The notes under the pieces were generated by a model, which was not told where the DNA came from, did not search any database, and saw only the letters and a program-made list of their open reading frames with translations. A stretch of 64,000 bases of DNA from contig JBBIKX010000001.1 of the NCBI GenBank assembly GCA_037445205.1, positions 8,767 through 72,766 of the forward strand, written 5' to 3'. The translations under genes and the position numbers were made by a program. This DNA comes from Candidatus Wildermuthbacteria bacterium. Lineage in GTDB: Bacteria; Patescibacteriota; Minisyncoccia; Minisyncoccales; PEYH01. Shown here in pieces: positions 13,171 through 56,695 of this stretch (positions are counted from its first letter, which is position 1; every line of letters begins with the position of its first letter).

Positions 13171-13173
13171 TTT

Positions 13174-27860: not shown

Positions 27861-29303
27861 CTATCTTAAAATCTCATTATTTGAATAAAACTTGTCTTTT
27901 TCCAAAACAAAAAGAGTTTTTTTCTCGCCAATCCATAAAATCTTTGCGTTGTTAAACTCTGATATTTGCCAGATATTGACCGGTTTTCTATCATCAATTT
28001 CTATTATAAAAATTCCGCTGCGCCCGGAAAAAATTAAATGATTCAAGCCCAGCCAAAAAATTTCATTCACTGGTTCCTTAAATTCAGCCAATTTGACGAT
28101 TTCCATTTCTTGGCGATGGGGTTGCTCATATTCTTTTTCTAAATAAAAAATTTCTATTTGATTGCCTTTCAAGATAGATATTTTTCTGTTTTCTTTATCC
28201 GCCAAAACCTTGTTTACATTTTCAGAGACTTTGTAAAAAATATGCGTTTTTGGATTTATATAGTAAAGATTCTCATCGCCCAGGACAAAAAACCGGGAAT
28301 TTGGGTAAGCAAAAATTTTATAACTTTTTTCATTCATTTCCAGGGGTTTCAAATTCAATATTTCCGAAACAATAATGATATGGTCTCTTATAAATGTTTT
28401 GTACAAAAAACCGCTGCTGCCCAGTAAAATCAAATCGCCGTTTAAAAAAGAAAAATCCATTATTTGGTCATCAAAAAAGGCTTCATTCATTAGCGATATT
28501 TGGTTAAGCTGTTCGTCAAGCGTCCAAAGGCGATCTTTTTTATTGTTTTTTACATCATCGCCGATAAAAACAATTTCGTTTTGATTTTGAGGATTAAATT
28601 TGGCTGATTTTAGGGAAAACTCAATTTCAATGGGAATTAATTTGTTTTGAGAGATATCTACTAAAAATATCCTTTTCTGTTTATCAAGGGCTGCCTCAAA
28701 AATAATTTTTTTTTCGTCCCCTGACCAGATGACTTCGTTTATGGTCAAAGATGTTTTTGGCTTTTTTATCTTGAAATGCGGGATTAGCTGGTCTTCTGAA
28801 AAAAGCTGGCTGATTTTCGAGTCAAAATGGCTCAATAGCAATATTCTCCTTTCTTCCTTTTCTGCTCCTTGGTCTGCGACAGAAAAACGCCCCGAGGGAG
28901 AGAAAAATATTTCTTTAATGTTTTCATAAGAAAAGGAAAAATTTATATTTTGAGGGATAAGAAGGATATTTTTCGCTTCAGTCACCATTGATTCTTCTAT
29001 GGTAAGAATTTTTTCCCATTTTTGATAATTATCCCTTTCTATCCTTATATGATAATCTCCGGGCAAAAGGTTATTCAAAAAAACCGAACTAAAAATTGGG
29101 TTTGTTTTTTTAATAAGGCGGTCGTTTATATAAATTTTGGCTGTTGATGGTTCGCTTTTAAGATAAAGTCCTCCCAAATGAACGATTTTATATGAAGCGA
29201 AATCAAAACGATATCCGTTTATATAAAAAAGAGTCAAGGGGGCGCAAGTTAAAAAAGCCAACGAAAGCGCTAAAAGCAGAATTTTTTTATGAAGCTTTTT
29301 CAT
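27861..29303 (-). CDS. Membrane-anchored surface protein with a PEGA-like domain and a repeat-rich C-terminal region
   Basis: 480 aa with an N-terminal signal/anchor (LLLALSLAFLTCAP). PEGA-like segment: KIYINDRLIKKT...LPGDYHIRIERDNYQKW. Confidence 0.6.
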   Translation of the reverse strand: MKKLHKKILLLALSLAFLTCAPLTLFYINGYRFDFASYKIVHLGGLYLKSEPSTAKIYINDRLIKKTNPIFSSVFLNNLLPGDYHIRIERDNYQKWEKILTIEESMVTEAKNILLIPQNINFSFSYENIKEIFFSPSGRFSVADQGAEKEERRILLLSHFDSKISQLFSEDQLIPHFKIKKPKTSLTINEVIWSGDEKKIIFEAALDKQKRIFLVDISQNKLIPIEIEFSLKSAKFNPQNQNEIVFIGDDVKNNKKDRLWTLDEQLNQISLMNEAFFDDQIMDFSFLNGDLILLGSSGFLYKTFIRDHIIIVSEILNLKPLEMNEKSYKIFAYPNSRFFVLGDENLYYINPKTHIFYKVSENVNKVLADKENRKISILKGNQIEIFYLEKEYEQPHRQEMEIVKLAEFKEPVNEIFWLGLNHLIFSGRSGIFIIEIDDRKPVNIWQISEFNNAKILWIGEKKTLFVLEKDKFYSNNEILR

Positions 29304-38340: not shown

Positions 38341-38945
38341 TCAATATTCCCAATTACGATTTTGAGGGGTTATTTTCTTATCTTTTAAGGATTGTTCAGG
38401 GATTTAAAATTCCCTTCATTGTTGTTTCTTTAATATTGCTTGCCGGAATTGTATATTTTATGGTTTTTACGGATTATCTTTATTACAAATACTTTGAGCA
38501 ATGGGAGGAATATACCAAATGGAAAGCGATGCATAAAATTCCCCGCAGAAAAAAAAGGAAAATCATCCAAAAGGAAAATCCGCTCTCCATGGCGCCGTCC
38601 CTGCCCGCAGAAGAGTCAATCATAAAAGAATCAAAACCGCCGGGGGAGTGGGAAAGGATTTTTGAAAAGCTTAAAAGCCAAAAAGGCATTGATTATAAAT
38701 TGGCGCTTGTTGACGCAGACAGATTGCTTGCCAAAAAATTAGAAGAAGCGGGAATCGCGGGAAGGAATTTAGATCAGCAAATAGAAAATGTTCCTCCGGA
38801 TTTTAAAATGGATTTGTCCCAGATTAAAAAGGCGCGAAATCTTTTAAAAGAGGTATTTTTGGAAGAAAAAAAGAAGACTGCGAAAAGCTCTGTTAAAGAG
38901 GCAATTGAGGTGTATAAAAATGCGTTTGACGCAGTAAAAATTTGA
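38319..38945 (+). CDS. Hypothetical membrane protein
   Basis: 208-aa ORF with one TM segment (IPFIVVSLILLAGIVYFMVF) and backbone composition. Confidence 0.55.
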   Translation: MSIQNNIINIPNYDFEGLFSYLLRIVQGFKIPFIVVSLILLAGIVYFMVFTDYLYYKYFEQWEEYTKWKAMHKIPRRKKRKIIQKENPLSMAPSLPAEESIIKESKPPGEWERIFEKLKSQKGIDYKLALVDADRLLAKKLEEAGIAGRNLDQQIENVPPDFKMDLSQIKKARNLLKEVFLEEKKKTAKSSVKEAIEVYKNAFDAVKI

Positions 38946-38970
38946 TTTTTTCTAAAAATCAATATATAAA
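38942..38970 (+). promoter_or_regulatory. Candidate promoter of the tRNA cluster
   Basis: TTGATT(38942-38947), 17-nt spacer, TATAAA(38965-38970), 6 nt before the first tRNA. Confidence 0.5.
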
Positions 38971-38976
38971 TACGAT

Positions 38977-39050
38977 AGCGGGGTGGACCAGTAGTAGGTC
39001 GCGGGTCTCATAAGCCCGAAGCGTTGGTGCAATTCCAGCCCCCGCTACCA
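38977..39050 (+). tRNA. tRNA-Met(CAT), initiator-like, CCA encoded
   Basis: Folded by hand. Acceptor AGCGGGG/CCCCGCT, anticodon stem CGGGT/GCCCG with three G-C pairs, loop CTCATAA. Close to the E. coli initiator tRNA pattern. Confidence 0.8.
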
Positions 39051-39084
39051 GTTTAAAAATAAAAAATTTTAATTTTTCTCTGTG

Positions 39085-39156
39085 GCCGGTGTAGCTCAGT
39101 GGCAGAGCAAACGTTTCATAAGCGTTGGGTCGTTGGTTCAATTCCAACCACCGGCA
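39085..39156 (+). tRNA. tRNA with CAT anticodon (elongator Met or Ile-lysidine); no encoded CCA
   Basis: Acceptor GCCGGTG/CACCGGC, D-stem GCTC/GAGC, loop TTCATAA, T-arm GTTGG-TTCAATT-CCAAC. Confidence 0.85.
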
Positions 39157-39175
39157 AAAATTGAGAATATATTAT

Positions 39176-39250
39176 GGACCCATGGTGTAGCCCGGTTAAC
39201 ACATCTCCCTGTCACGGAGAAGATCAGGGGTTCAAATCCCCTTGGGTCCG
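39176..39250 (+). tRNA. tRNA-Asp(GTC)
   Basis: Acceptor GGACCCA/TGGGTCC, anticodon loop CTGTCAC, T-arm AGGGG-TTCAAAT-CCCCT. Confidence 0.88.
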
Positions 39251-39253
39251 CAA
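39235..39253 (+). repeat. Direct repeat copy 1 (the 3' end of tRNA-Asp), att-like
   Basis: AATCCCCTTGGGTCCGCAA is identical to 40465-40483. Confidence 0.9.
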
Positions 39254-39305
39254 TACGAGATTTGTCAAAGATTCTGTTTCGCAATCAACGCGGAAGTGAC
39301 AATTT

Positions 39306-40373
39306 ATGAAAATTTCTGATTTAAATTTTAGTAATTTCAATAGACAAATTAAATTTTCAATGAAAGCAATACTAAGCGATTTTAAATATTTCTATTTATC
39401 GATTTTTTTCTTTGGAATTCTTTTGTTTTTCATTCCTGAAATTTGTAGCGCTAATTTCCTTATAGGAGGATTTTTTATGTATAGTTTCTCTTTGTTGGCG
39501 CCCGTTATTTTCACGGGCGTTTGGGCCATAGAAGCCTTAACTATCAAGAATAAATTAGGGGGGACGCCACAAAAAGCACTATTTACTGCTTTAGTGGTAA
39601 ATTTGGCCACCAGCCTATCGGGCTTTGTTTTGGTTAAAAAAAACTTCTTGGCGGAATACACCCTATATAACGAATCTCTTACATTAATGATTTTTTTCCT
39701 TCTATCTGTTTTTGTTGAAATGTTAATGTTGCATTTTTGCTATAGAGAAGAATCTTGGCATAAAGTAATTATTGCTAGCTTTTTAATGAATCTGAAATCT
39801 TACTTTTTTTTAGCGTTTTTCTTGATAGGAGATTTTACAATCATAGGCGGGGCTATTATTTTAGTTATTGTCGTCCCCTATTTTTTCACAAAAGCTTTTA
39901 GGATGTTAGCCCCGGACAGAGAGTTTTTAAAATTTTTTAAAATAAGATCAGGCATCTTAATTCATTTCCTTTCCATTGTTCTAATCGGTTTGGTGTTTAT
40001 AGGAACCATAAAGGCGATAGATAAAGCGTTTCTTAAGCAAAGAAGAGAGGTGATAAAAGAGCATGAGGTAATGTCTAACATGCTTCAGATAAGCTCCAAG
40101 GCAGAATTGATCTATGCATACAAAGGAAGTTATGAATCATTAAATTGCGACTATGACGAAGAAATAAAAAGTGCTTGCAAGAATATTGAAAAGAAGACAG
40201 GCGCCAGGCTCACTATTCATACATCTGAAAACAGATATTGCGCCTATATTAAATTAATTTATTCTGAAAAATGGTATTGCGCAGATAATATTTCTGGACT
40301 TATCCCTGGGAAAATTAATATTAATCCCTCTATTTTGGGGTATTGTGATGGTAAGACTTTTATTTGTCCATAA
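39306..40373 (+). CDS. Polytopic membrane protein with a C-terminal type IV pilin-like globular domain
   Basis: 355 aa with about 6 TM helices. The C-terminus then runs hydrophobic helix, MSNMLQISSKAELIYAYKGSYESL, RYCAYIKL, WYCADNISG, with cysteine pairs reminiscent of pilins. Confidence 0.6.
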   Translation: MKISDLNFSNFNRQIKFSMKAILSDFKYFYLSIFFFGILLFFIPEICSANFLIGGFFMYSFSLLAPVIFTGVWAIEALTIKNKLGGTPQKALFTALVVNLATSLSGFVLVKKNFLAEYTLYNESLTLMIFFLLSVFVEMLMLHFCYREESWHKVIIASFLMNLKSYFFLAFFLIGDFTIIGGAIILVIVVPYFFTKAFRMLAPDREFLKFFKIRSGILIHFLSIVLIGLVFIGTIKAIDKAFLKQRREVIKEHEVMSNMLQISSKAELIYAYKGSYESLNCDYDEEIKSACKNIEKKTGARLTIHTSENRYCAYIKLIYSEKWYCADNISGLIPGKININPSILGYCDGKTFICP

Positions 40374-40464
40374 ATATTAGCTTATTTGTAAGAATTAGAT
40401 GTGTTGTCCACAATTTTTTAGAGTAAAAATAATTGATTAATTTTTCCATCGGTATCAGATTATT

Positions 40465-40483
40465 AATCCCCTTGGGTCCGCAA
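40465..40483 (+). repeat. Direct repeat copy 2
   Basis: AATCCCCTTGGGTCCGCAA is identical to 39235-39253. Confidence 0.9.
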
Positions 40484-40505
40484 CGATACAAATTTCTTAC
40501 CTTAA

Positions 40506-40531
40506 AGCCGCGCTCCAGCGTGGCTTTTTTT
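40506..40531 (+). terminator. Rho-independent terminator (probably the original tRNA-cluster terminator)
   Basis: AGCCGCGC(40506-40513) pairs with GCGTGGCT(40518-40525) with one G-U pair, followed by TTTTTTT. Confidence 0.65.
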
Positions 40532-40533
40532 GG

Positions 40534-40561
40534 TTGAAATTTTTTTTGATTCTGATAGATT
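40534..40561 (+). promoter_or_regulatory. Weak candidate promoter of cassette B1
   Basis: TTGAAA(40534-40539), 16-nt spacer, TAGATT(40556-40561). Confidence 0.3.
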
Positions 40562-40589
40562 GAAAAAATAACCAAAAGGAGGTGAGACA

Positions 40590-41588
40590 GTGTCTTGCGA
40601 TACAGCCGTTATCGTGAATGTGCAGGCGGGCGCGGGAATGACTCGCTGGAAGTTGGCGCATCTTATGCGCCAGTTAAACCGCATTCTTTCTGTGCCCAAG
40701 AGTTGTGTCTGGCTGACTCGGGAAACCGGCGAGAGCAGCGCCACATCCCTGGCATCTTTTGCCCAAAGCAGAGGGGCCAAAGCAGTGATTGTCTTTGGCG
40801 GAGACGGCACGGTTCATCAGGCAGTAAACGGCCTGAAACTGCCCGATCCTTCAATCTCTGTTGGCATTGTGCCCTGCGGTACGGCCAACGTGGTTGCTTC
40901 CTGCCTTGGAATGCCAAGAAATGTCAAAGCGGCGCTGGAAGTCATAAGGGCCGGAATGACAAGAAAGATCGATCTGGGAATCCTGGAGGGAGATGGCCTT
41001 CCAAGATACGCGGTTTCCACGCTAAGCGTGGGACTTGACGCGATGATAAACGAACTGGCGCATCGTGTTAAGCCCCTGTTTCGGAAATACCATCTGCCAT
41101 CCATCTTGGGCTACATTCCGCCTCTTCTTAGATACACTCTTAATGAAGTTCCGCTCTACGATGTAGCTGTCAAAAAGGATGGATTGGTTTTTTGCGAAAG
41201 GATATCCTTTCTGGCAGTAACAAACACTCCATGGTATGGAGGCGGATTGGTGGACAGAACTGCCAAGCTTGACGACGGGCTGTTTAACATGATATGCGCC
41301 AGAAAGATCAGGTCCCGCGATCTTCCCTGGTGGATGTTTCAGATGTGGCAGGGAAATCACATCTATTATCCCAAGGTTTTTCTGCCCTGCTCTTCGTTTT
41401 CAGGATTAAGCATAAGTTCTGACTTTCCCTTGCCCGCGCAGATTGACGGACAGATTCTGCCCGCCCGGAAGAACATCGCAATCTCTGTCGTTCCCCGCCT
41501 CCTGCAGGTTTTCGCACCTTTGCCCCAACCAGAAAGAACAAAGCATTCTGGTTGGGGTTGTTTTTTTGATATGTCCAGGTTCAGATAG
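40590..41588 (+). CDS. Diacylglycerol-kinase catalytic-domain (YegS/BmrU-type) lipid kinase
   Basis: GTG start 5 nt after GGAGGTG(40578-40584). Contains VIVFGGDGTVHQAVNGL and VGIVPCGTANVVASCLG, hallmarks of the DAGK_cat family. Confidence 0.8.
   Translation: MSCDTAVIVNVQAGAGMTRWKLAHLMRQLNRILSVPKSCVWLTRETGESSATSLASFAQSRGAKAVIVFGGDGTVHQAVNGLKLPDPSISVGIVPCGTANVVASCLGMPRNVKAALEVIRAGMTRKIDLGILEGDGLPRYAVSTLSVGLDAMINELAHRVKPLFRKYHLPSILGYIPPLLRYTLNEVPLYDVAVKKDGLVFCERISFLAVTNTPWYGGGLVDRTAKLDDGLFNMICARKIRSRDLPWWMFQMWQGNHIYYPKVFLPCSSFSGLSISSDFPLPAQIDGQILPARKNIAISVVPRLLQVFAPLPQPERTKHSGWGCFFDMSRFR
41523..41567 (+). terminator. Strong rho-independent terminator lying inside the last codons of the kinase ORF
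   Basis: Perfect 12-bp stem: CCCCAACCAGAA(41523-41534) pairs with TTCTGGTTGGGG(41546-41557), followed by TTGTTTTTTT. Confidence 0.7.
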
Positions 41589-41591
41589 ATA

Positions 41592-41620
41592 TTGACCAAA
41601 ATATTCTTTTATGATATAAT
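41592..41620 (+). promoter_or_regulatory. Near-consensus sigma70 promoter of cassette B2
   Basis: TTGACC(41592-41597), 17-nt spacer, TATAAT(41615-41620). Confidence 0.6.
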
Positions 41621-41647
41621 TTGGATATCCTAAGGAGGTGATGCGTG

Positions 41648-41815
41648 ATGAAGGCGGGTATAGTGATTTTCCGGCATACACAAGTAGAAACGCTGCAGGC
41701 GACGGTTAACGCGTTTCTCAAGGTTCACGCTCCACATATGGAGAACCTTGAGCATCAGCTGGTAGTGACTCCAGACGGCACTATCGTCTTGACCCTGCTT
41801 TATCGGGCTAAGTAG
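41648..41815 (+). CDS. 55-aa soluble protein, unknown family
   Basis: Not in the ORF track (below 60 aa). AAGGAGGTG(41632-41640) lies 7 nt before the ATG. Translates to MKAGIVIFRHTQVETLQATVNAFLKVHAPHMENLEHQLVVTPDGTIVLTLLYRAK-stop. Confidence 0.6.
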   Translation: MKAGIVIFRHTQVETLQATVNAFLKVHAPHMENLEHQLVVTPDGTIVLTLLYRAK

Positions 41816-41837
41816 GGTTCGTAAGGAGGGAGGAACG

Positions 41838-42101
41838 ATGCGTAAGCTCTTTGCGGCGATTGTCGGACTCTACCGTCGGCTCTGGATGATTGAGCCCCGC
41901 CGTTTCAAACGGGGACAAATCATCCAGTTCGAAGACTGGCGCGATGGCATTAGAGTTGCCAAAGCCAGATACCTGGTTCTCGGCAATACACCCTCCGAGA
42001 AGAGGTACGTCCTGGAGGGTGTTGGGCCCGGCAACAAGGGGAGGCGCGAGCGCCTTCGCTTCCGCTGGGTTGACAAACACGCACATTTGGTGCGCGGCTG
42101 A
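41838..42101 (+). CDS. 87-aa basic protein, unknown family
   Basis: AAGGAGG(41823-41829) lies 8 nt before the ATG. The ORF is in the track and is followed by a terminator. Confidence 0.6.
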   Translation: MRKLFAAIVGLYRRLWMIEPRRFKRGQIIQFEDWRDGIRVAKARYLVLGNTPSEKRYVLEGVGPGNKGRRERLRFRWVDKHAHLVRG

Positions 42102-42111
42102 AATGCCTGTT

Positions 42112-42155
42112 CCGCCCGGGACTAAGGAGGAGTTCCGGGCGGTTGTTGTTTTTTG
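42112..42155 (+). terminator. Terminator of cassette B2
   Basis: CCGCCCGG(42112-42119) pairs with CCGGGCGG(42135-42142), followed by TTGTTGTTTTTT. Confidence 0.65.
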
Positions 42156-42204
42156 ATGAAGTTTCTGGTATCGTATCAAGTATCGCACATTGGGAGGTGG
42201 AACG

Positions 42205-42348
42205 GTGCACAAATGGGTAATCTTTGCGGTAGTGGTGATCCCAAGCATTCTCATCGGTTCCCTTATCTGCCTTTTCCAAGGAAAGGGCAGAAGAGTGTGG
42301 TCCTTCGCTAAGGGGAGAGTCTTTGCTTGGGCGGAAACGGATTGGTGA
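42205..42348 (+). CDS. 47-aa single-pass membrane peptide
   Basis: GGAGGT(42194-42199) lies about 5 nt before the GTG at 42205. Translates to (M)HKWVIFAVVVIPSILIGSLICLFQGKGRRVWSFAKGRVFAWAETDW-stop. Not in the ORF track (below 60 aa). Confidence 0.5.
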   Translation: MHKWVIFAVVVIPSILIGSLICLFQGKGRRVWSFAKGRVFAWAETDW

Positions 42349-42371
42349 ACACAATCCTCTTGGCACTTGTT

Positions 42372-42405
42372 AACCGGCGCATCTTCTGATGGGCCGGTTC
42401 ATCTT
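42372..42405 (+). terminator. Hairpin at the right edge of island B
   Basis: AACCGGC(42372-42378) pairs with GCCGGTT(42393-42399), followed by CATCTTTT. The T tract is weak. Confidence 0.4.
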
Positions 42406-42472
42406 TTAACAAAAAATGCTCCATTTTTTGATTTGATTTTTGTTTGTTTTTGAATTAGAATTAATATATAAA

Positions 42473-43519
42473 ATGGATTTAAAAAGCATTAAAAAGAAAG
42501 CAAAAAAGGAGATTGAATCGGCAAAAGATTCTGTTGCGCTAAAGCATATTTTTCAAGATTTTTTCGGCAAAAAGGGCGAGATTGCCGTCATTTTAAGCTC
42601 TCTTAAAAATCTTCCCCAAAAAGAAAGAAAGGACAAGGGAAAAATTATAAATGAAGTAAAAAAAGAGGTTCTGGAAATGATTGCAAAAAAAGAAAATAAT
42701 TTGAAAAAAATTGAGGCGGCTTTGGACGCAAAAGAGGAGTGGATTGATATAAGCTTTCCCTCAAAAAAAATTCCTCTGGGACATCTTCACCCCCTTACCC
42801 AAGCCAGAAGAAAAACAGAGGAAATTTTTGAAAAACTTGGATTTTCTGTGATTGAAGGACCCCAGATAGAAACAGAGTGGTATAATTTTGACGCCCTAAA
42901 CATTCCCAAAGATCATCCCGCGCGGGACAGGTGGGACACTTTTTGGCTCAGGGAGTCAGAAAGTCAAAAGTCAAAGGTCAAAAGTCAAAGGTTATTGTTA
43001 AGAACCCACACAAGTCCGGTTCAAATCCGCTATATGGAAAAAAACAATCCTCCCTTGCGGATTATTGTTCCAGGCAGAATATTCAGATACGAGGCGACAG
43101 ACGCTTCTCATGAAATAAACTTTTACCAGCTGGAAGGATTAATGGTTGATTCAAAAGTAACCCTTGCCGACTTTAAAGGAGTGATGGAAAAATTTTTCCA
43201 GATGTTTTTTGGCGATGAGGCCAAGATCCGGCTAAGGCCCAGCTATTTTCCCTTTACCGAACCGAGCGTTGAAATTGATATTAGCTGCCGGATATGCAAA
43301 CAAGAGGGATGCAGCGCTTGCGGCCGGAAGGGCTGGGTTGAAATAGCGGGCGCAGGCATGGTTCACCCAAATGTTTTTAAAGCAGCCAACCTTAACCCTA
43401 AAAATTGGCAGGGATTTGCGTTTGGAATAGGTCTTGATAGGTTGGCTATGATGAAATACAGGATTAATGATATAAGATTGTTCTATGGGGGAGATCTGCG
43501 GTTTCTTGAGCAATTTTAA
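42473..43519 (+). CDS. pheS: Phenylalanine--tRNA ligase alpha subunit
   Basis: Contains LLRTHTSPVQIRYM, FRYEATDASH and the class II motif 3. The start is taken as the ATG at 42473 (MDLKSIKK...) rather than the ORF-track TTG at 42440. Confidence 0.93.
   Translation: MDLKSIKKKAKKEIESAKDSVALKHIFQDFFGKKGEIAVILSSLKNLPQKERKDKGKIINEVKKEVLEMIAKKENNLKKIEAALDAKEEWIDISFPSKKIPLGHLHPLTQARRKTEEIFEKLGFSVIEGPQIETEWYNFDALNIPKDHPARDRWDTFWLRESESQKSKVKSQRLLLRTHTSPVQIRYMEKNNPPLRIIVPGRIFRYEATDASHEINFYQLEGLMVDSKVTLADFKGVMEKFFQMFFGDEAKIRLRPSYFPFTEPSVEIDISCRICKQEGCSACGRKGWVEIAGAGMVHPNVFKAANLNPKNWQGFAFGIGLDRLAMMKYRINDIRLFYGGDLRFLEQF
42954..42991 (+). repeat. Imperfect short tandem repeat (AGTCAAA[A/G]G-like) inside pheS
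   Basis: AGTCAGAAAGTCAAAAGTCAAAGGTCAAAAGTCAAAGG encodes the low-complexity insert SQKSKVKSQR. Confidence 0.8.
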
Positions 43520-43528
43520 TTTAACATA

Positions 43529-45595
43529 ATGATATTTTCGTATAACTGGATACAGTCATTTTTTACTGAAAAACTGCCCAAGCCTCAAGCATTGGCAGAG
43601 CTTTTGGAGCTTCACAGCTTTGAAGTAAAAGAGACAAAAAAAATCGGGAGAGATTTTTCGCTTGATATAGATATAATGCCGAACAGGCCCGACTGTTTTT
43701 CTCATTTGGGCATTGCAAGAGAATGTTCTGCCATTCTTGGATTAAAAACCAAGAATAATCAGCCAAAAATAGTTTCAGAATTTTCGTTTAAAAATCTCAA
43801 AAAGAAATCTAATCTGATTTCCGTGGAAATTAAAGATCAAAACGATTGTTTTAGATATACGGGGGCGTTTGTCGGGGGCATTAGTGTTGGTTTTTCTCCG
43901 AAATGGATGCAGCAAAGACTTTCCGTTTGCAATATTCAGCCGATTAACGGCATAGTTGATGTGGCGAACTACACAATGCTTGAAACGGGCCAGCCCATAC
44001 ATATTTTTGATTATGATAAAATCGCGGGCAAAAAAATTGTCGTAAGACGCGCCCGAAAAAACGAGAAAATTTCCGCTCTTGATGGGAAAGAATATAGCCT
44101 CGATCAGGATATTTTGGTAATTTCCGATGAAAAACAACCTTTGGCGATAGCGGGAATTAAAGGCGGAAATATCGCAGCAATTGACGAAAAAACAAAAAAC
44201 ATCTTTATTGAATCCGCGACTTTTGACCCTTTGGTTATAAGAAAGGCGTCTTATAAGCTGAAATTGAAAACAGATGCTTCTTTGAGATTTGAGCACGGGC
44301 TTGATTACAATATGACGGAATCGGCGATCAATAAAGCGATATCTTTTGTAAAAAAAACTTCGTCCAAGGATGCTAAAATTTTCAAAATAGATATTTTTGA
44401 GAAGTGTCCGCCCAAAAAAATTATAAAACTTGATTTTAACTTTGCAGAAAAACTCTTGGGCGTAAAAATTTCTCCAAAAAATACAGAGAACATATTAAAA
44501 ACGCTTGGAATAAAAGTTTTTAAAAAAACGAACAGCACTTTTGATTTAGAGATTCCCTTTGAAAGGGGCGATCTCTGCCTGCCCTCCGACATCGCGGAAG
44601 AAATTATAAGAATTTACGGATTAGAAAGAATAAAACCCACTTTGCCCCTTGGAGTTTTAGTCCCTCCCCAAAAAAACGACGAACTTTTTTGGGAAAACCA
44701 GGTTAAAAATTCTTTGAAAGAAATGAATTTCTTTGAAATTTACAATTATTCTTTCATCAAAAAAAACGATGGAAAAAATTATTTTTCTCTTGTTGAGCTT
44801 GAAAATCCGGCAAGCGAACAATTCCAATATCTCAGGCCAACGCTTTTAACGGGGCTTATAGAAAATTTAAAAATCAACACTCCAAATTACAAGGAAATAA
44901 AAATTTTTGAGCTGGAAAAAGTTTTCCAAAAATCAATCAGCGGAGAAATTTTTGAAAAGAAAATGTTGTCTGGCCTGATTTGGGAAAAAGGGGCAAAAAA
45001 GGGGAGATTGGAAAACGAATTCGCCCATATCAAGGGAATTTTAGACACGCTTTTGAATAATTTGGGGATAAGCGATTATTATTTTAACGAATACAAACCA
45101 AATCCTTCGGAGATGAAATTATCATTTTGGGATAAAAACCGCGTAGCAGAAATTTCTCTTATGAGCGGGAAAAAAATTGGATTTCTGGGAGCGATTTCTT
45201 TGGATATTCTTGGGGGCTATAAAATTGAGGAACCGGTTATGGCTTTTGACATAGATTTTGAAAAGCTTTGGACGGAGTGCAGCGAAGAGTGCGAATATCG
45301 TCCTGCCTCAAATTATCCCTGCGCTATACGCGATATTGCGGTTTTAGTTCCAAGAGAAACAAAAATAGGCGAGGTTTTAAATGCAATACAGAAAGCCGGC
45401 GGAGAAAAGATAAGAGATGTGGATTTGTTTGATTTCTACGAGGGGTCTCAAATTCCCCAAGGAAAGAAGAATCTTGCATTCCATATCATATTTCAATCAG
45501 ACGATAAAACATTAAGCGGCAAGGAAGTTGATTCATTGCATAAAAAAATAATCGGTTTTCTTGAGAAAAAAGAAGGATGGGCGGTGAGAAAATAA
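43529..45595 (+). CDS. pheT: Phenylalanine--tRNA ligase beta subunit (short form)
   Basis: 688 aa. Has B3/4 and B5 region motifs (IMPNRPDCFSHLGIARE) and follows pheS. Confidence 0.92.
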   Translation: MIFSYNWIQSFFTEKLPKPQALAELLELHSFEVKETKKIGRDFSLDIDIMPNRPDCFSHLGIARECSAILGLKTKNNQPKIVSEFSFKNLKKKSNLISVEIKDQNDCFRYTGAFVGGISVGFSPKWMQQRLSVCNIQPINGIVDVANYTMLETGQPIHIFDYDKIAGKKIVVRRARKNEKISALDGKEYSLDQDILVISDEKQPLAIAGIKGGNIAAIDEKTKNIFIESATFDPLVIRKASYKLKLKTDASLRFEHGLDYNMTESAINKAISFVKKTSSKDAKIFKIDIFEKCPPKKIIKLDFNFAEKLLGVKISPKNTENILKTLGIKVFKKTNSTFDLEIPFERGDLCLPSDIAEEIIRIYGLERIKPTLPLGVLVPPQKNDELFWENQVKNSLKEMNFFEIYNYSFIKKNDGKNYFSLVELENPASEQFQYLRPTLLTGLIENLKINTPNYKEIKIFELEKVFQKSISGEIFEKKMLSGLIWEKGAKKGRLENEFAHIKGILDTLLNNLGISDYYFNEYKPNPSEMKLSFWDKNRVAEISLMSGKKIGFLGAISLDILGGYKIEEPVMAFDIDFEKLWTECSEECEYRPASNYPCAIRDIAVLVPRETKIGEVLNAIQKAGGEKIRDVDLFDFYEGSQIPQGKKNLAFHIIFQSDDKTLSGKEVDSLHKKIIGFLEKKEGWAVRK

Positions 45596-47561: not shown

Positions 47562-49058
47562 ATGAGCTATATTGTTAAAATAATATTTTTTTGGAAAAGA
47601 ATTTATTTGCTGATAATGATTATCTGTTTTTCTTTATTCGCAGAGTTTGCGTTGGCAGAAGAAATTAAACAAGAAATATATGTCCCCAAAATAGAAATAG
47701 GCGATGGAATTACTCATTTAGCCAGAAAAACAATAATTGAATTTATAAAAAGAGAGGGTATTGACCCCAGAATTACGGTTCCGCACTTGGTTTATATTGA
47801 GGATCGTCTTGCGATAGAAAAAGGAAAGAAAACTATTTATTTAAAAGATTTTTCGCCAATAAATTTTTCCAGTGAAGAAATATCTAGGGCGATAAATAAA
47901 GCGTTGCTGCTTAACGAAAAGCAGATTTTAAGCTTAGAGCACTACGCTCTGTCCGTAAGCGCATATTTTGACTTAATAGTTAATAATAAGTTGCGGTTTA
48001 ATATAAAAAAAATTTCCGATTATAATTTGCCCCAGATAACCGGATTAGGATATCGCTTTATTGTTTACAAAGACAATATTTTTTTATTAGACATAGAGAA
48101 AAAAATAATGATTTTAGATATAGCGAATTCTAAAACCCCGAAGTTAATTGCCGAATTTTCTCCACCCCCTGGGGCTCGATGTAATAATCTTGCCTCTCTA
48201 CAAGACAATTTGATCGCTCTTTTTTGCTGGAATTCTTTTTCCGAGAGAATAATCTATTTTCTCGAGGTAGACAATCCTTTTGATTTGAAAATTATTTCAG
48301 AGTATAAGTTCGGCAAGGGAAATCTTATGGGAAATGCCGCTATAAAAGATTCTTTGCTTTTTTTGAGCGATTATAATCTATTTGAGGCAATAGACGTAGG
48401 CGATATTAAAACACCAAAATTAATTTTTAAACATGAATTTGATGATAGCTTTGAGCCGGTGAATATAACAAAAAAAGATAATCTTTTAATAGTCGGCTAT
48501 GATAAAAACTCTCCCCAGATCTTATGGTTGTTTGATGCCAAAAATTTTGAAATAAAAGAATTAGAAATACAAAACGAGAAAGCGATAAAACATCGCTATT
48601 TTTGGAGAAGCAGGGAAGGAAAAAACTGGCTCTTGGGTTCGCCCAGTATTTATTATTATTTTCCTTCATTGCTATTTATCAACTCCAAGGATATTTCTTT
48701 GGGAAAAAATAGCGGAATCTTGAACGTTAAGCCCTTTGAATTTCAATGTCCTTTATTAGAAAATCCAATTTTTGACTATGATAGCAAAGATGATGTCGTA
48801 TATCTTTATGTTCGCAGCCGCTATTTGAGAGACCCGACAAACAATATAACAGAATGTTGTGATGAGAATCTTTATATTTTGGATTTTAATGCTATTGGAG
48901 AAGAGCCACTAAAAGAGATTATAAATATCGGAAAATCCCCAGTTCTATTTAAAAATATGAACCTACAAAAGAGTAGATTATTTACTGTAACCGACTCCTT
49001 AACGACTTCTTGGCAAAAACTGGAAATTTATCAATTAATAAAAACTATCCATCCTTGA
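47562..49058 (+). CDS. Hypothetical secreted or anchored repeat protein (LVIVD/beta-propeller-like repeats, tentative)
   Basis: 498 aa with an N-terminal TM/signal segment. Recurrent D[IV].....PKLI motifs. Confidence 0.55.
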   Translation: MSYIVKIIFFWKRIYLLIMIICFSLFAEFALAEEIKQEIYVPKIEIGDGITHLARKTIIEFIKREGIDPRITVPHLVYIEDRLAIEKGKKTIYLKDFSPINFSSEEISRAINKALLLNEKQILSLEHYALSVSAYFDLIVNNKLRFNIKKISDYNLPQITGLGYRFIVYKDNIFLLDIEKKIMILDIANSKTPKLIAEFSPPPGARCNNLASLQDNLIALFCWNSFSERIIYFLEVDNPFDLKIISEYKFGKGNLMGNAAIKDSLLFLSDYNLFEAIDVGDIKTPKLIFKHEFDDSFEPVNITKKDNLLIVGYDKNSPQILWLFDAKNFEIKELEIQNEKAIKHRYFWRSREGKNWLLGSPSIYYYFPSLLFINSKDISLGKNSGILNVKPFEFQCPLLENPIFDYDSKDDVVYLYVRSRYLRDPTNNITECCDENLYILDFNAIGEEPLKEIINIGKSPVLFKNMNLQKSRLFTVTDSLTTSWQKLEIYQLIKTIHP

Positions 49059-53540: not shown

Positions 53541-55024
53541 TAAATTCATCAAAAAAATATATTCCCGTCATCGGGCTTGAAATACATACGGAATTAAAAA
53601 CTAATTCCAAAATGTTTTGCGGGTGCAAAAACGATTCGCAGGAAAAAGAAGCGAATTTGAATATTTGTCCTGTTTGCATGGGTCATCCCGGCACTCTCCC
53701 CGTTATAAACAAAACAGCGATTCGTTTTGTCATAAAAACAGGGATTGCTCTGAATTGTAAAATTACAAAAGAGTCGCGATTTGAAAGAAAAAATTATTTT
53801 TATCCCGATCTTCCAAAAGGATATCAGATTTCTCAATACAAAGAGCCGTTTTGTTTTAATGGCTTTTTAAAAATAAATAATAAAAAAATAAGAATTAGAA
53901 GGGTTCATTTGGAAGAAGATACTGCCCGCCTGATACACTCCAAAAATGGATATTCGCTGATTGATTTCAACCGCGCCGGCATTCCTTTAATGGAGCTTGT
54001 AACGGAGCCGGACATAGAATCTTCTAAAGAGGCATCAGACTTCGCAAAAAAACTTCAGTTGATCCTGAGATATTTAAATGTTTCCAGCGCTGACATGGAA
54101 AAAGGGCAATTGAGAGTGGAGGCAAATATTTCATTAATAAACGCAAATTTTAAAGCAAAAAACGCAAAACTAGGAACAAAGGTGGAGATCAAAAATTTAA
54201 ATTCGTTTAGGGCAGTTGAGAGGGCGATAGAATATGAAATAGAAAGGCAAAAGGAGTTACTATTAAATGATGAGAGGGTGGCGCAGGAAACAAGAGGATG
54301 GGATCCTCAATCAGAAAGAACCTTTCCCCAGAGAGAAAAAGAAGAGGCGCATGATTACCGCTACTTTCCAGAGCCGGATTTGCCCCAGATTTATATAAAA
54401 AAAGACTATCTGGAGGCGATAAAAAAAGGAATTCCCGAACTTCCCGATCAAAAAATAAAAAGATTAAAAGAAGAATTTTTTGTTAACGAACAATCAGCCC
54501 AGATTCTTGTCTCTAACAGAGATTTAAGCGAGTATTTTGAAAAATCGGCAAGCGAGCTTTTAAGATGGTCAAAAGACAAAAGATTAGATCAAAAGAGCCA
54601 AAAAGAATTGATACAGAGCGCCGCCAACTATCTTTTGACAGATTTACTCGGCTGTCTTTCAGGGAAAGAATTTTCAGAAAAAGATTTTCCCATAACGCCT
54701 GAAAATTTCGGAGAGTTTATCGCTCTTGTCCGCGATAAAAAATTCACAAGCAAAATGGCAAAAATTCTTTTAGGAGAGATGTTTGATTCCGGCCAAGATC
54801 CCTCAACCATAATAAAAAAAAGAGGATTAATCCAGACGGACAACGAAGATGAGATTAAAAAAATAGTGCAAAAAATAATTTCATCAAATCCTCGGGCATT
54901 TGAAGATTATAAAAAAGGAAAAGAAAATGCTCTTCAATTCATGATTGGACAAATGATGAAAGAAACTAAAGGCACTATAAATCCCCAGATGGCAAAGAAA
55001 GCGTTGATTGATTTTTTAAAATAA
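53537..55024 (+). CDS. gatB: Glu/Asp-tRNA amidotransferase subunit B
   Basis: Contains IGLEIHTELKT, VCMGHPGTLPVINK and RVEANISL. Confidence 0.95.
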   Translation: MINSSKKYIPVIGLEIHTELKTNSKMFCGCKNDSQEKEANLNICPVCMGHPGTLPVINKTAIRFVIKTGIALNCKITKESRFERKNYFYPDLPKGYQISQYKEPFCFNGFLKINNKKIRIRRVHLEEDTARLIHSKNGYSLIDFNRAGIPLMELVTEPDIESSKEASDFAKKLQLILRYLNVSSADMEKGQLRVEANISLINANFKAKNAKLGTKVEIKNLNSFRAVERAIEYEIERQKELLLNDERVAQETRGWDPQSERTFPQREKEEAHDYRYFPEPDLPQIYIKKDYLEAIKKGIPELPDQKIKRLKEEFFVNEQSAQILVSNRDLSEYFEKSASELLRWSKDKRLDQKSQKELIQSAANYLLTDLLGCLSGKEFSEKDFPITPENFGEFIALVRDKKFTSKMAKILLGEMFDSGQDPSTIIKKRGLIQTDNEDEIKKIVQKIISSNPRAFEDYKKGKENALQFMIGQMMKETKGTINPQMAKKALIDFLK

Positions 55025-55032
55025 TATATAAT
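55004..55032 (+). promoter_or_regulatory. Near-consensus promoter of cassette C
   Basis: TTGATT(55004-55009, inside the last gatB codons), 17-nt spacer, TATAAT(55027-55032). Confidence 0.55.
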
Positions 55033-55135
55033 ACTTAAAATCCAGAATAAGGAGGTGGTCGCCGGGATACAGTCCAAAGAGGGCGAGGGGCGTTTTCGGA
55101 AGCAAAACCGGATCTTTCTTGCGAAAGGAGCATCG

Positions 55136-55333
55136 ATGCCAGCAGTAAATCTTGTTAACGTGGCGAGGTCATTGCCGGACGAAGAGGCGGAGAGGCTTTT
55201 GCTCATCGAGCAAAGCAATCCTGATTGCCTCAGGGCGCTTTTTGCGGTCGTTCTGAGCGCCGGAACGCTGGAAAAAGCTGTTCCTCTGATCCAACGAGTT
55301 CTTGCTGGCGCACCCTTGTTTCCGGGCGGATGA
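55136..55333 (+). CDS. 65-aa helical protein, unknown family (a 92-aa form from the GTG at 55055 is possible)
   Basis: AAAGGAG(55124-55130) lies 5 nt before the ATG at 55136. The same frame is open from 55055, but that GTG sits inside an SD (AAGGAGGTG 55049-55057). Confidence 0.5.
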   Translation: MPAVNLVNVARSLPDEEAERLLLIEQSNPDCLRALFAVVLSAGTLEKAVPLIQRVLAGAPLFPGG

Positions 55334-56341
55334 AACTGGATGGGGCTCCCTTCGGGAGCCCCCTTGTTTTGTTAAAAAAGTATTTATTATTTTTCTGGCT
55401 TTTTTTTTATCCCCAACCCAATTTACTCTTTTGTCTTTTTTAAACCAGGTTATTTGTCTTTTGGCGTAACTTTCAATTGCTTTTTGGAGCATTCCGACCA
55501 TTTCATCATAGCCAATTTTTTTTTGAAGATAGCAAGCAATATATCTGTATTCCAATCCAAATTCTTCAAGCCGTTTCCAGGAAACGCCGTCTTTTCTTAG
55601 CGCTCTGACCTCTTTTATCATCCCCTGATTTAATCTTTTGTATAGCCGTTTTCTGATTAAATTTTTTAGCTCTTTTTTTTCTTTCTTGATGCCGATAATG
55701 AGCAAATCAAACAATTGGCTTTTTTTTATGACGGGTACCGGTTTTTTTGATTTCAAAACTATTTCAATTGCCCGGATTAATCTGCGGGGATTTTTTTTAT
55801 CAATAATTTTTGCCCGCCGCGGGTCCAGTTTTTTTAACATTTGATAAAGCTGGTTTGGCAATTTTTTTTCCAGTTTTTTCCTTAATTTCCAGTCCGGCGG
55901 AATTTTTGGGATGACGATTCCGTCAACGACTGATTGAATATAGAATCCGGTGCCGCCGCAAAGAATGGGCAGCTTATTTCTCTTATGGATTTCCCTTATT
56001 TTTTTTAATGCCATTTTTTGATACTGGGCGACCGTAAATTTCCTTTTTGGAGAAGCAACATCCAAAAGATGATGTTGGATGCCTCTATAAAGATATGACT
56101 GTTTTGAAATTTGAGATTTAGGACTTGGAGTTTGTTTAGAAATTAGAAATTTGGAATTAGAAATTTTATCTCGTGGAACCTTCCCGGTTCCGATATCCAT
56201 TTTGCGATAAACCTGACGGGAATCGGCCGAAATCACCTCTCCGTTAAAATTTTTTGCCAGTGCTACCGCCAAATCGCTTTTTCCCGAAGCAGTGGGTCCA
56301 AGAATAACTAACAATATTTTTCGGTCCGTTTTTTTTGACAT
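55169..56341 (-). CDS. miaA: tRNA dimethylallyltransferase MiaA. The conserved core is 55364-56341; the ORF then runs 64 further codons antisense into cassette C.
   Basis: P-loop LGPTASGKS, plus DSRQVY, GGTGFY and AKRQITWF. The homologous end (KIINTFLTKQ) coincides with the composition boundary at about 55364. Confidence 0.88.
   Translation of the reverse strand: MSKKTDRKILLVILGPTASGKSDLAVALAKNFNGEVISADSRQVYRKMDIGTGKVPRDKISNSKFLISKQTPSPKSQISKQSYLYRGIQHHLLDVASPKRKFTVAQYQKMALKKIREIHKRNKLPILCGGTGFYIQSVVDGIVIPKIPPDWKLRKKLEKKLPNQLYQMLKKLDPRRAKIIDKKNPRRLIRAIEIVLKSKKPVPVIKKSQLFDLLIIGIKKEKKELKNLIRKRLYKRLNQGMIKEVRALRKDGVSWKRLEEFGLEYRYIACYLQKKIGYDEMVGMLQKAIESYAKRQITWFKKDKRVNWVGDKKKARKIINTFLTKQGGSRREPHPVSSARKQGCASKNSLDQRNSFFQRSGAQNDRKKRPEAIRIALLDEQKPLRLFVRQ
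55342..55372 (+). terminator. Terminator of cassette C
   Basis: GGGGCTCCC(55342-55350) pairs with GGGAGCCCC(55354-55362), followed by CTTGTTTTGTT. Confidence 0.7.
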
Positions 56342-56363: not shown

Positions 56364-56389
56364 TATAAATCCCAAAAAGGAGGTGGTTA

Positions 56390-56683: not shown

Positions 56684-56695
56684 GGCGTGGATTGC

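What the first reader, a model, noticed from the sequence alone, without database searches (positions are those of the whole stretch)
40534..42405. Island B: a lipid kinase plus three micro-proteins in three tandem cassettes beside a tRNA integration hotspot
This is the largest foreign block, about 1.9 kb. It lies between the tRNA-cluster terminator and pheS and splits into three units.

- B1: a YegS/BmrU-type DAGK-domain lipid kinase (GGDGT, PCGTAN).
- B2: a near-perfect promoter (TTGACC-17-TATAAT) drives a bicistron of a 55-aa protein and an 87-aa protein, each with AAGGAGG.
- B3: a 47-aa single-TM peptide with its own SD and hairpin.

Two of the four ORFs are below the ORF-track cutoff and were found only by reading downstream of the SD motifs.

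Two interpretations are speculative. Reduced CPR-like cells are thought to scavenge host lipids, so an acquired lipid kinase with small membrane partners could process scavenged lipids. Alternatively, the 47-aa hydrophobic peptide resembles type I toxin-like or regulatory membrane peptides.
Basis: partly seen in the sequence, partly recalled or inferred. Interest (0 to 1): 0.8.

Follow-up and report, generated by a model that had tools for sequence, protein, structure and literature searches.

The report
Old lipid-kinase locus with small-gene cassettes
A GC-rich 1.9-kb stretch next to pheS holds a genuine lipid-kinase gene and three small genes, but it is an old, inherited accessory locus of this small-genome bacterial lineage, not a fresh foreign island; only one micro-protein is conserved.

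Summary
The sequence features are all present as described: a GC-rich block (about 51% against 39% overall) made of three promoter/SD/ORF/terminator units. The 332-aa ORF is a DAGK_cat + YegS_C soluble lipid kinase.

The claim of a recently acquired island at a tRNA integration site is only partly right. The kinase sits at this position (tRNA-Asp > kinase > pheST) in six related metagenomic lineages and diverges in step with pheS, so it is old and vertically inherited. The real tRNA-targeted insertion is the neighbouring low-GC 355-aa ORF, bracketed by an exact 19-nt repeat of the tRNA-Asp 3' end.

- The 47-aa membrane peptide is conserved, with its SD and terminator, in two relatives.
- The 55-aa and 87-aa ORFs are sequence orphans behind a conserved promoter whose cargo differs between strains.
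- The 55-aa product is predicted with high confidence (pLDDT 95) as a small fold that looks Cse60-like or phage-like.
- The minus-strand ORFs are not conserved.

Unexpectedly, native genes of this genome and its relatives lack Shine-Dalgarno motifs. The GC-rich cassettes here, and at least three more in the window, all carry strong ones.

Overall this is an ordinary kind of accessory locus with some curious features. Interest is moderate to low.

The parts
39235..39253 (+). Copy 1 of an exact 19-nt direct repeat (AATCCCCTTGGGTCCGCAA), which is the 3' end of tRNA-Asp (39176-39251). Left border of the ORF355 insertion. Context only, not part of island B.
   Evidence: 2 copies; 0.03 expected by chance
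39306..40373 (+). Low-GC (0.32) 355-aa multi-pass membrane ORF with no family match. It is the cargo of the 1230-bp segment inserted into the tRNA-Asp 3' end. It is absent from L002 and L004, where tRNA-Asp lies about 130 bp upstream of the kinase.
40465..40483 (+). Copy 2 of the 19-nt repeat. This is the ancestral tRNA-Asp 3' end, now displaced, and it lies immediately upstream of the island.
40504..40534 (+). Intrinsic-terminator-like hairpin plus T-run (T0). A terminator occupies the same position after tRNA-Asp in relatives.
40534..40561 (+). Kinase promoter-like site, TTGAAA-16-TAGATT, with TG before the -10. Conserved in L002, L004, L167 and L168.
40576..40584 (+). Shine-Dalgarno AAGGAGGTG of the kinase. 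The GGAGGTGAGA core is conserved across the clade.
40590..41588 (+). B1: a 332-aa soluble lipid kinase (DAGK_cat residues 6-130, YegS_C residues 144-308). The last 22 or so codons run through the terminator hairpin.
41523..41567 (+). Kinase terminator hairpin (arms 41523-41534 and 41546-41557) plus T-run. Conserved in L167 and L168.
41592..41630 (+). B2 promoter TTGACC-17-TGnTATAAT (41592-41620), followed by the palindrome GGATATCC (41623-41630). Conserved in L168 and, as TTGACC...TATGAT...GATATC, in L002. The DNA downstream of it differs in each genome.
41648..41815 (+). p55: a 55-aa soluble protein with SD AAGGAGG at 41632-41638. It is a sequence orphan. It is confidently predicted as a beta-alpha-beta-beta fold resembling phage or Cse60-like small proteins.
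41838..42101 (+). p87: an 87-aa basic protein with SD AAGGAGG at 41823-41829. It is a sequence orphan. The low-confidence model shows an N-terminal helix followed by beta strands.
42112..42155 (+). Terminator hairpin after p87. The loop TAAGGAGGA and the tail TTGTTGTTTTTT are conserved in L002 and L003, while the stem changes by compensatory substitutions.
42205..42348 (+). p47: a 47-aa single-pass membrane peptide with SD GGAGGTG at 42193-42199 and a GTG start. Homologues of the same length lie at the same place in L002 (11592-11735) and L003 (1441-1584).
42372..42407 (+). Hairpin plus a short T-run after p47, marking the right edge of the island. The pheS contigs of close relatives (L165, L166) begin here.

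Best explanation
This is a long-standing accessory locus of a small-genome, low-GC bacterial lineage. The lineage is probably Patescibacteria/CPR. The evidence for that is indirect: there is no L30 gene between S5 and L15, and the native genes lack Shine-Dalgarno motifs.

**Layers of the locus**
- **Oldest layer (shown).** A stand-alone gene for a soluble DgkB/YegS/BmrU-type lipid kinase, with its own promoter, SD and terminator. It lies between tRNA-Asp and pheST and has been inherited vertically.
- **Conserved promoter, variable cargo (shown).** Behind the kinase terminator is a conserved strong promoter. It drives cargo that differs between strains. In this genome the cargo is the orphan pair p55 + p87.
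- **Conserved peptide gene (shown).** A 47-aa membrane-peptide gene follows.
- **Origin (inferred).** All units have high GC3 and full SD motifs in a genome whose own genes have neither. This points to an origin outside the lineage, from SD-using donors of higher GC. The kinase arrived long ago and the B2 cargo recently.
- **The real tRNA-targeted insertion (shown).** The only event with an integration scar is the adjacent low-GC ORF355 segment, inserted into the 3' end of tRNA-Asp.

**Function (inferred from family membership)**
- The kinase phosphorylates diacylglycerol or a related lipid to feed membrane-lipid recycling.
- p47 may be a membrane partner of the soluble kinase, but it is not required in all lineages.
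- The functions of p55 and p87 are unknown. They look like phage-moron-type cargo.
For: **Kinase family**
- Pfam DAGK_cat 87.9 bits and YegS_C 42.4 bits.
- Solved DgkB structure 2qv7 at 4e-19, with BmrU and YegS also matched.

**Synteny and vertical descent**
- Gene tables and tRNA scans of L002-L004 show the same slot.
- L085, L086 and L097 show it too.
- Kinase and pheS identity matrices have the same grouping.
- Kinase dS is similar to pheS dS for close pairs: 0.12 vs 0.08 and 0.74 vs 0.64.

**Composition**
- Kinase GC3 exceeds pheS GC3 in every lineage, by 0.10-0.14 in five of the six and by 0.04 in L004. The small ORFs downstream of the kinase have GC3 0.52-0.68.

**Shine-Dalgarno contrast**
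- 0 of 28 native gene starts carry a strong SD, against all 4 island ORFs.
- The same contrast holds in L002, L003 and L004.

**Conserved promoters and swapped cargo**
- Alignments A3 and A4.
- Contigs of close relatives break at the cassette borders.

**p47**
- tblastn 1.4e-6 and 6.9e-6.
- A profile finds it only at the syntenic sites.
- It has an in-frame indel, and its start, SD and 47-codon length are conserved.

**p55**
- pLDDT 95 from a single sequence.
- Best fold matches are phage 'sporulation protein'/Cse60-like proteins, TM 0.81-0.85.

**ORF355 insertion**
-.

**Precedent for a membrane partner**
- Soluble DgkB needs a membrane recruiter, GdpS, in S. aureus (PMC11962490).
Against: - No enzyme assay exists, and the substrate is unknown.
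- The kinase scores below the cut-offs of the NCBIfam subfamily and all equivalog models (TIGR00147: 98.6 against 118.65).
- The residue aligned to DgkB Glu273 is Gln in this strain and in its 95% relative, but Glu in the other clade members.
- A persistent GC3 excess after saturating divergence is awkward for simple ancient transfer followed by amelioration.
- p55 and p87 have no homologues, so there is no comparative evidence that they are translated.
- p47 differences between L002 and L003 show no third-position bias (8/9/8). Its pS of 0.27 is below the kinase pS of 0.47, so constraint at the nucleotide level cannot be excluded.
- No donor lineage could be identified. The best hits outside the clade are 31-33% identical.
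Confidence: 0.7

Rival explanations
1. The whole 1.9-kb block is a recently acquired foreign island, delivered by an element that integrates at the tRNA cluster, with the kinase and its micro-protein partners arriving together.
For: - GC and GC3 are far above the host's.
- SD motifs are absent from host genes.
- An exact 19-nt tRNA-Asp repeat lies at the left edge.
- Contigs of close relatives break at the island edges.
Against: - The kinase is at the same site in six related lineages. Its divergence of 34-58% identity tracks pheS.
- The second copy of the repeat lies upstream of the island. The repeat pair therefore brackets ORF355, not the island.
- There is no third copy within 3 mismatches.
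- The island has no integrase or recombinase ORF.
- p55 and p87 are absent even from the 95% and 72% relatives.
Confidence: 0.1
2. The small ORFs are not genes. The GC-rich DNA between the kinase and pheS is non-coding: remnants of decayed insertions, or a structured leader or regulatory RNA for pheST. On this view p55, p87 and p47 are chance ORFs in GC-rich sequence.
For: - p55 and p87 are orphans.
- The p47 region folds better than shuffled sequence (z -3.8).
- p47 shows no third-position bias between L002 and L003.
- Even longer ORFs exist on the opposite strand.
Against: - No Rfam family matches, even at E <= 5, including T-box.
- The predicted internal pairs are not kept in the window sequence.
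- Each ORF has a full SD at 5-9 nt, in a genome where SDs are otherwise absent.
- p55 is predicted at pLDDT 95 without an alignment.
- p47 keeps its start, SD, 47-codon length, an in-frame indel and a hydrophobic core at about 30% identity.
- GC1 > GC2 < GC3 holds in the p55 and p87 frames but not in the antisense frames.
Confidence: 0.12
3. B3, or B2 together with B3, is an addiction or toxin module. p47 would be a type I membrane toxin controlled by an antisense RNA. Alternatively, p55 and p87 would form a toxin-antitoxin or anti-phage pair on a decayed mobile element.
For: - p47 is a small hydrophobic peptide with its own SD and flanking hairpins.
- p55 has a fold common among small phage proteins.
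- The cargo varies between strains.
Against: - There is no match in PADLOC or Pfam.
- p47 is single-copy and kept in synteny across lineages with saturated dS. That is unusual for type I toxins.
- No antisense promoter stronger than chance was seen.
- There is no experimental evidence.
Confidence: 0.08

Closest known systems
Soluble bacterial diacylglycerol/lipid kinases (DgkB of S. aureus and B. subtilis, PDB 2qv7; BmrU, 3t5p; YegS, 2bon). Pfam DAGK_cat PF00781 + YegS_C PF19279.
   Same: - Two-domain architecture.
- GGDGT nucleotide-binding motif.
- The conserved Asp aligned to DgkB Asp271.
- Length of about 300-330 aa.
- No membrane segment.
   Different: - Only 25-31% identical to any characterised member or any member outside the clade.
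- Below the cut-offs of the NCBIfam subfamily and equivalog models.
- Gln in place of the residue aligned to DgkB Glu273.
- It forms a small clade restricted to related small-genome metagenomic lineages and always sits next to pheST.
GdpS-DgkB membrane recruitment in Staphylococcus aureus (PMC11962490).
   Same: A soluble DAG kinase must be brought to the membrane. Here a membrane peptide gene (p47) is kept near the kinase gene in three lineages.
   Different: - GdpS is a polytopic protein with a GGDEF domain, whereas p47 is a 47-aa single-pass peptide with no such domain.
- No interaction has been tested.
- The kinase occurs without p47 in L004, L085 and L086.
Phage 'morons': self-contained promoter-ORF-terminator units of deviating base composition. 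This comparison comes from memory of the lambdoid-phage literature.
   Same: - Each unit has its own promoter-like site, SD and terminator.
- GC deviates from the surrounding DNA.
- The ORFs are small.
- The cargo is strain-variable.
   Different: They sit in a chromosome between housekeeping genes, with no prophage. Two of the units (the kinase and p47) are anciently conserved.
Cse60 / small phage 'sporulation protein' fold (Pfam PF10957; accession recalled from memory).
   Same: p55 has the same size and the same beta-alpha-beta-beta topology. Foldseek TM is 0.81-0.85 to the two best phage matches, one annotated 'sporulation protein' and one unnamed.
   Different: There is no sequence-level Pfam match, even at E <= 10. 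The Foldseek E-values are only about 1e-3, and the fold is simple.
tRNA-gene-targeted genomic islands.
   Same: An exact 19-nt duplication of the tRNA-Asp 3' end marks an insertion at this locus.
   Different: The duplication brackets the neighbouring ORF355 segment, not island B. No integrase is present.

Membership tests
DAGK_cat / YegS-BmrU-DgkB soluble lipid kinases | DAGK_cat catalytic domain above the Pfam gathering score | tested here: met
   PF00781: 87.9 bits against a cut-off of 23.6, residues 6-130.
DAGK_cat / YegS-BmrU-DgkB soluble lipid kinases | C-terminal YegS_C (NAD-kinase-like beta sandwich) domain | tested here: met
   PF19279: 42.4 bits against a cut-off of 27, residues 144-308.
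DAGK_cat / YegS-BmrU-DgkB soluble lipid kinases | GGDGT nucleotide-binding motif and the conserved C-terminal Asp (DgkB Asp271) in the DGE motif | tested here: inconclusive
   G70-T74 and D286/G287 are invariant in the clade and align to DgkB GGDGT and VDGE. The residue aligned to DgkB Glu273 is Gln in the window and in P0002. The numbering of the DgkB residues and their catalytic roles come from memory; the paper could not be read.
DAGK_cat / YegS-BmrU-DgkB soluble lipid kinases | Membership of a curated orthologous group (DgkB, YegS, or the TIGR00147 subfamily) | tested here: not met
   TIGR00147: 98.6 against 118.65. DgkB-type PRK13337: 89.8 against 385. YegS TIGR03702: 46.3 against 387.
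DAGK_cat / YegS-BmrU-DgkB soluble lipid kinases | ATP-dependent phosphorylation of diacylglycerol or another lipid | not testable with these tools
   This needs an enzyme assay.
tRNA-integrated genomic island | Island bracketed by direct repeats derived from the tRNA 3' end | tested here: not met
   Only two copies of the 19-mer exist within 3 mismatches. Both lie upstream of the island and they bracket 39254-40464.
tRNA-integrated genomic island | Integrase or recombinase gene in the island | tested here: not met
   The four ORFs give only kinase domains or no match.
tRNA-integrated genomic island | Empty site in related genomes | tested here: not met
   The kinase occupies the site in L002, L003, L004, L085, L086 and L097. 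Only the B2 cargo and ORF355 are absent from relatives.
Type I toxin-antitoxin (for p47) | Small hydrophobic membrane peptide | tested here: met
   47 aa, with a Kyte-Doolittle 19-residue maximum of 2.85.
Type I toxin-antitoxin (for p47) | Overlapping or adjacent antisense RNA antitoxin | tested here: inconclusive
   No minus-strand promoter-like site was found within the p47 unit (42156-42407). The minus-strand sites in the scanned 38500-44000 region all lie elsewhere, and the total of 18 sites compares with 10.0 +/- 2.9 expected. No transcript data are available.
Cse60-like small proteins (for p55) | Match to the family profile | tested here: not met
   No Pfam hit other than an irrelevant one at E 0.07, even with the threshold at E <= 10.
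Cse60-like small proteins (for p55) | Same fold | tested here: inconclusive
   Foldseek against BFVD gives TM 0.85, rmsd 1.4 and E 1.2e-3 to a phage 'sporulation protein', and E 5.7e-3 to a phage Cse60. No PDB match is below 1e-3.
Integron gene cassettes | intI integrase and attC recombination sites between cassettes | tested here: not met
   The hairpins are simple G+C stems followed by T-runs. No integrase was found among the island ORFs. The rest of the window was not scanned systematically.

The most novel reading that the evidence does not exclude
The GC-rich, SD-led cassettes may form a separately translated gene class in a genome that otherwise initiates without Shine-Dalgarno pairing. 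The class would include island B plus at least three more in this window: 16462-16839, 56390-56683 and 61984-62859(-). Their SDs have been kept under selection over saturating divergence. That would imply a small accessory regulon of membrane and lipid genes that depends on SD-anti-SD pairing, perhaps by a conditional ribosome state as described for Bacteroidota. Within this regulon, p47 would be a minimal membrane tether for the soluble lipid kinase.
Probability: 0.1. Interest if true: 0.7.

Novelty: new member of a known kind. Interest (0 to 1): 0.35.

Why it matters
If the kinase is active, it gives this reduced-genome lineage a route to re-phosphorylate diacylglycerol. That bears on how such cells maintain membranes without full lipid synthesis. 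A DAG kinase has already been noted as a variable gene in Parcubacteria (PMC11188291).

The more general point concerns the split between two gene classes. Core genes are AT-rich and lack SD motifs. Accessory cassettes are GC-rich, SD-led and self-contained, and they stay that way for long evolutionary times. This offers a simple sequence signature for finding accessory genes in these genomes. It also raises a testable question about how translation starts in them.

Tried and rejected
- **Rfam.** Searches at gathering thresholds over the whole window, and at E <= 5 over 40380-42500, found only the three tRNAs and noise. There was no T-box or leader.
- **Exact-protein scan of GTDB genomes** for the kinase found nothing. 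The profile scan found only relatives at 33% identity or less.
- **Viral-contig scans.** Nothing for p55 or p87, and only 23-26% relatives for the kinase.
- **PADLOC, PHROGs and NCBIfam** for the micro-proteins gave nothing meaningful.
- **Positional analogues of p87.** It was compared with the L002 126-aa ORF and the L085 154-aa ORF. There is no significant similarity (E 0.23-6.7). All-against-all BLAST of the small ORFs links only the p47 family.
- **p87 structure.** The model has pLDDT 57, and its fold search found nothing.
- **Consensus RNA structure of the p47 region.** Only the two terminator hairpins are supported across all three sequences.
- **Minus-strand ORFs** 41808-42254 and 41950-42366.
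  - They have no family match.
  - They are not kept open in L002 or L003 over the p47 region.
  - Their codon-position GC pattern is poorer.
- **Integron reading** rejected: no attC-like sites and no intI.
- **Chimeric assembly** rejected. The arrangement recurs in independent assemblies from other samples.
- **Other dead ends.**
  - The DgkB structure paper could not be read.
  - A paper search for the SRA run found nothing.
Full report
**1. What is in the sequence**

The block 40497-42405 is the one large compositional outlier of the window. GC is about 0.51, against 0.39 overall and 0.31-0.40 in the flanks. The excess holds at all three codon positions of the main ORF: GC1/2/3 are 0.54/0.45/0.55, against 0.45/0.33/0.38 for 12,742 host codons.

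Reading the DNA together with the consensus scan and hairpin folds gives three units on the plus strand.

| Unit | Promoter-like site | SD | ORF | Terminator hairpin |
|---|---|---|---|---|
| B1 | TTGAAA-16-TAGATT, 40534-40561 | AAGGAGGTG | GTG 40590 to 41588 | 41523-41557 |
| B2 | TTGACC-17-TGnTATAAT, 41592-41620 | AAGGAGG (twice) | p55 41648-41815; p87 41838-42101 | 42112-42142 |
| B3 | none clear | GGAGGTG | GTG 42205, p47 to 42348 | 42372-42399 |

An independent gene caller on the public copy of this contig (L001, Logan SRR11582151) also called the 55-aa and 87-aa ORFs, but not p47.

**2. The kinase**

- The 332-aa product matches DAGK_cat (5e-25) and YegS_C (8e-11), both above the Pfam cut-offs.
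- Among solved structures it matches DgkB 2qv7 (4e-19), then BmrU and YegS.
- It is below the cut-offs of TIGR00147 and of every NCBIfam equivalog. It is therefore a family member but not an assignable orthologue of DgkB or YegS.
- GGDGT and the Asp aligned to DgkB Asp271 are invariant in its clade. The residue aligned to Glu273 is Gln in this strain and its 95% relative, but Glu in the others.

**3. It is old and syntenic, not a fresh island**

Among 5.8 billion proteins the kinase has a tight clade of relatives at 95, 72, 56, 54, 54 and 36% identity. Everything else is at or below 31%.

- The contigs of the 54-56% relatives (L002, L003, L004) show the same order: gatC, gatA, a 208-aa protein, tRNA-Met, tRNA-Met, tRNA-Asp, kinase, pheS, pheT, gyrB.
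- More distant metagenomic loci keep tRNA-Asp > kinase > pheS. These are L085 and L086 (kinase 34-35% identical), with L097 showing the upstream part.
- The kinase and pheS identity matrices give the same three groups.
- For close pairs, kinase dS is similar to pheS dS: 0.12 vs 0.08 and 0.74 vs 0.64.
- The kinase promoter and SD region are alignable across the clade.

This is vertical descent from a common ancestor.

**4. The real tRNA insertion is next door**

An exact 19-nt repeat, AATCCCCTTGGGTCCGCAA, occurs at 39235-39253 (the 3' end of tRNA-Asp) and at 40465-40483. There are no further copies within 3 mismatches, against 0.03 expected by chance.

The repeat brackets the low-GC (0.32) 355-aa membrane ORF. 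In L002 and L004, tRNA-Asp lies about 130 bp upstream of the kinase with no such ORF. The 'integration hotspot' idea is therefore right, but it applies to ORF355 and not to island B.

Relatives carry other selfish genes in the tRNA cluster. L085 has a LAGLIDADG endonuclease (6e-16), and L002 has a weak GIY-YIG fragment.

**5. The micro-proteins**

*p47*
- It is conserved. tblastn finds it in L002 (11592-11723, 1.4e-6) and L003 (1441-1566, 6.9e-6) at the same place upstream of pheS.
- All three ORFs are 47 codons long. They share HKW at the N-terminus, a hydrophobic core containing IP, and LFQG+xR+xW after it. They differ by an in-frame indel.
- A profile of the three finds nothing else in 170 loci.
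- The antisense ORFs are broken in L002 and L003.
- The comparative coding signal is weak. L002 and L003 differ at 8/9/8 sites by codon position, with pN/pS about 0.55.
- p47 is absent from L004, L085 and L086.

*p55 and p87*
- Both are sequence orphans. Each matches only itself, and p87 also matches only itself in a full HMMER scan of 1.8 billion representatives.
- p55 folds with pLDDT 95 from a single sequence as beta-alpha-beta-beta. Its best fold matches are small phage proteins, one annotated as a sporulation protein and another as Cse60 (top two matches TM 0.81-0.85, E about 1e-3).
- p87 gives only a low-confidence model.

**6. A conserved promoter with swapped cargo**

- The B2 promoter and the following palindrome GGATATCC are identical in the 95% strain (L168) and recognisable in L002.
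- The DNA after GGATATCCTA differs in L168.
- In L002 the slot holds an unrelated 115-aa membrane protein.
- The 72% relative (L167) has different, low-GC DNA after the kinase terminator. L004 goes straight to pheS.
- Contigs of close relatives end exactly at the cassette borders. L168 holds only the kinase, and L165 and L166 start 42-50 nt before pheS. This suggests heterogeneity within the population.
- No recombinase or repeats that could explain the swapping were seen.

**7. Unexpected: two classes of genes**

- None of 28 native gene starts in the window has a strong SD, ribosomal protein genes included. Every island ORF has one.
- The same holds in L002-L004. About 30 native genes lack an SD there, while the kinase, the L002 cargo ORF and the p47 homologues have one.
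- The kinase SD core GGAGGTGAGA is conserved despite saturated synonymous divergence.
- Kinase GC3 exceeds pheS GC3 in every lineage, by 0.10-0.14 in five of the six and by 0.04 in L004.
- Other ORFs in the window are also GC-rich, SD-led and flanked by a promoter-like site and a terminator: 16462-16839, 55136-55333 and 56390-56683. The SAM methyltransferase at 61984-62859(-) is likewise GC-rich and SD-led, though its flanks were not scanned.
- S5 is followed directly by L15, with no L30 gene. From memory, this is typical of CPR bacteria.

**8. Interpretation**

The best reading is an old accessory locus of foreign origin. A stand-alone soluble lipid kinase was fixed in the lineage long ago. 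It is followed by an expression slot whose cargo turns over, and by a conserved membrane-peptide gene.

A role in recycling diacylglycerol is inferred from family membership alone. A link between p47 and the kinase is plausible by analogy with GdpS-DgkB (PMC11962490), but it is untested and cannot be obligatory.

A DAG kinase has already been reported as a variable gene in Parcubacteria (PMC11188291). The kinase is therefore a new member of a known kind. The micro-proteins remain uncharacterised.

The persistence of the GC excess and of the SD motifs is the most curious point, and it is unexplained.

Noticed in passing
window, whole; examples at 11306, 12694, 13174, 42473 and 43529: Native genes, including ribosomal protein genes, have A/T-rich leaders and no Shine-Dalgarno motif (0 strong SDs in 28 starts). 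Native genes in L002, L003 and L004 are the same.
   Followed up: partly
window 16402-16902 (+): Another self-contained GC-rich cassette. It has a promoter-like TTGACG-17-TACTAT, SD TAAGGAGGTAG, a 125-aa multi-pass membrane ORF (16462-16839, GC 0.48, no Pfam match) and a terminator at 16883-16902.
   Followed up: partly
window 55004-55362 (+) and 56335-56721 (+): Two more GC-rich small-ORF cassettes. The first has TTGATT-17-TATAAT, a 65-aa ORF (55136-55333, GC 0.55) and a terminator at 55342-55362. The second has TTGACA-17-TATCAT (11 of 12), SD AAAAGGAGGTG, a 97-aa membrane ORF (56390-56683, GC 0.51) and a terminator at 56696-56721.
   Followed up: partly
window 61984-62859 (-): A GC-rich (0.49, GC3 0.50), SD-led (GCAAGGAGGTA) 291-aa SAM-dependent methyltransferase (Methyltransf_11, 5e-13). 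It has the same compositional and SD signature as island B.
   Followed up: no
window 39235-40483: A 1230-bp low-GC segment carrying a 355-aa membrane ORF with a Cys-rich C-terminus and no family match. It is bracketed by an exact 19-nt duplication of the tRNA-Asp 3' end, with no integrase. It is absent from L002 and L004.
   Followed up: partly
window 12694-13617: Ribosomal protein S5 is followed after 3 nt by L15, with no L30 gene between them. This is consistent with a CPR/Patescibacteria genome (hallmark recalled from memory).
   Followed up: partly
L085 3831-4781; L002 9513-9713: Homing-endonuclease genes sit inside the tRNA-Met/tRNA-Asp cluster of relatives. L085 has LAGLIDADG_3 at 6e-16, and L002 has a weak GIY-YIG fragment at 8e-4.
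   Followed up: partly
window 42112-42142; L002 about 11490-11530: The loop TAAGGAGGA (an SD-like sequence) of the terminator hairpin before p47 is conserved between lineages, while the stem changes by compensatory substitutions. L003 keeps the loop and the 3' arm but has lost the 5' arm.
   Followed up: partly
window 41523-41588: The kinase ORF reads through its own terminator hairpin, adding about 22 residues. In the 72% relative (L167) the ORF stops before the hairpin. This strain probably lost the stop codon.
   Followed up: partly
window 47562-49058 (+) and 27861-29303 (-): Two long low-GC ORFs (498 aa and 480 aa) have no Pfam match at E <= 1e-5.
   Followed up: no
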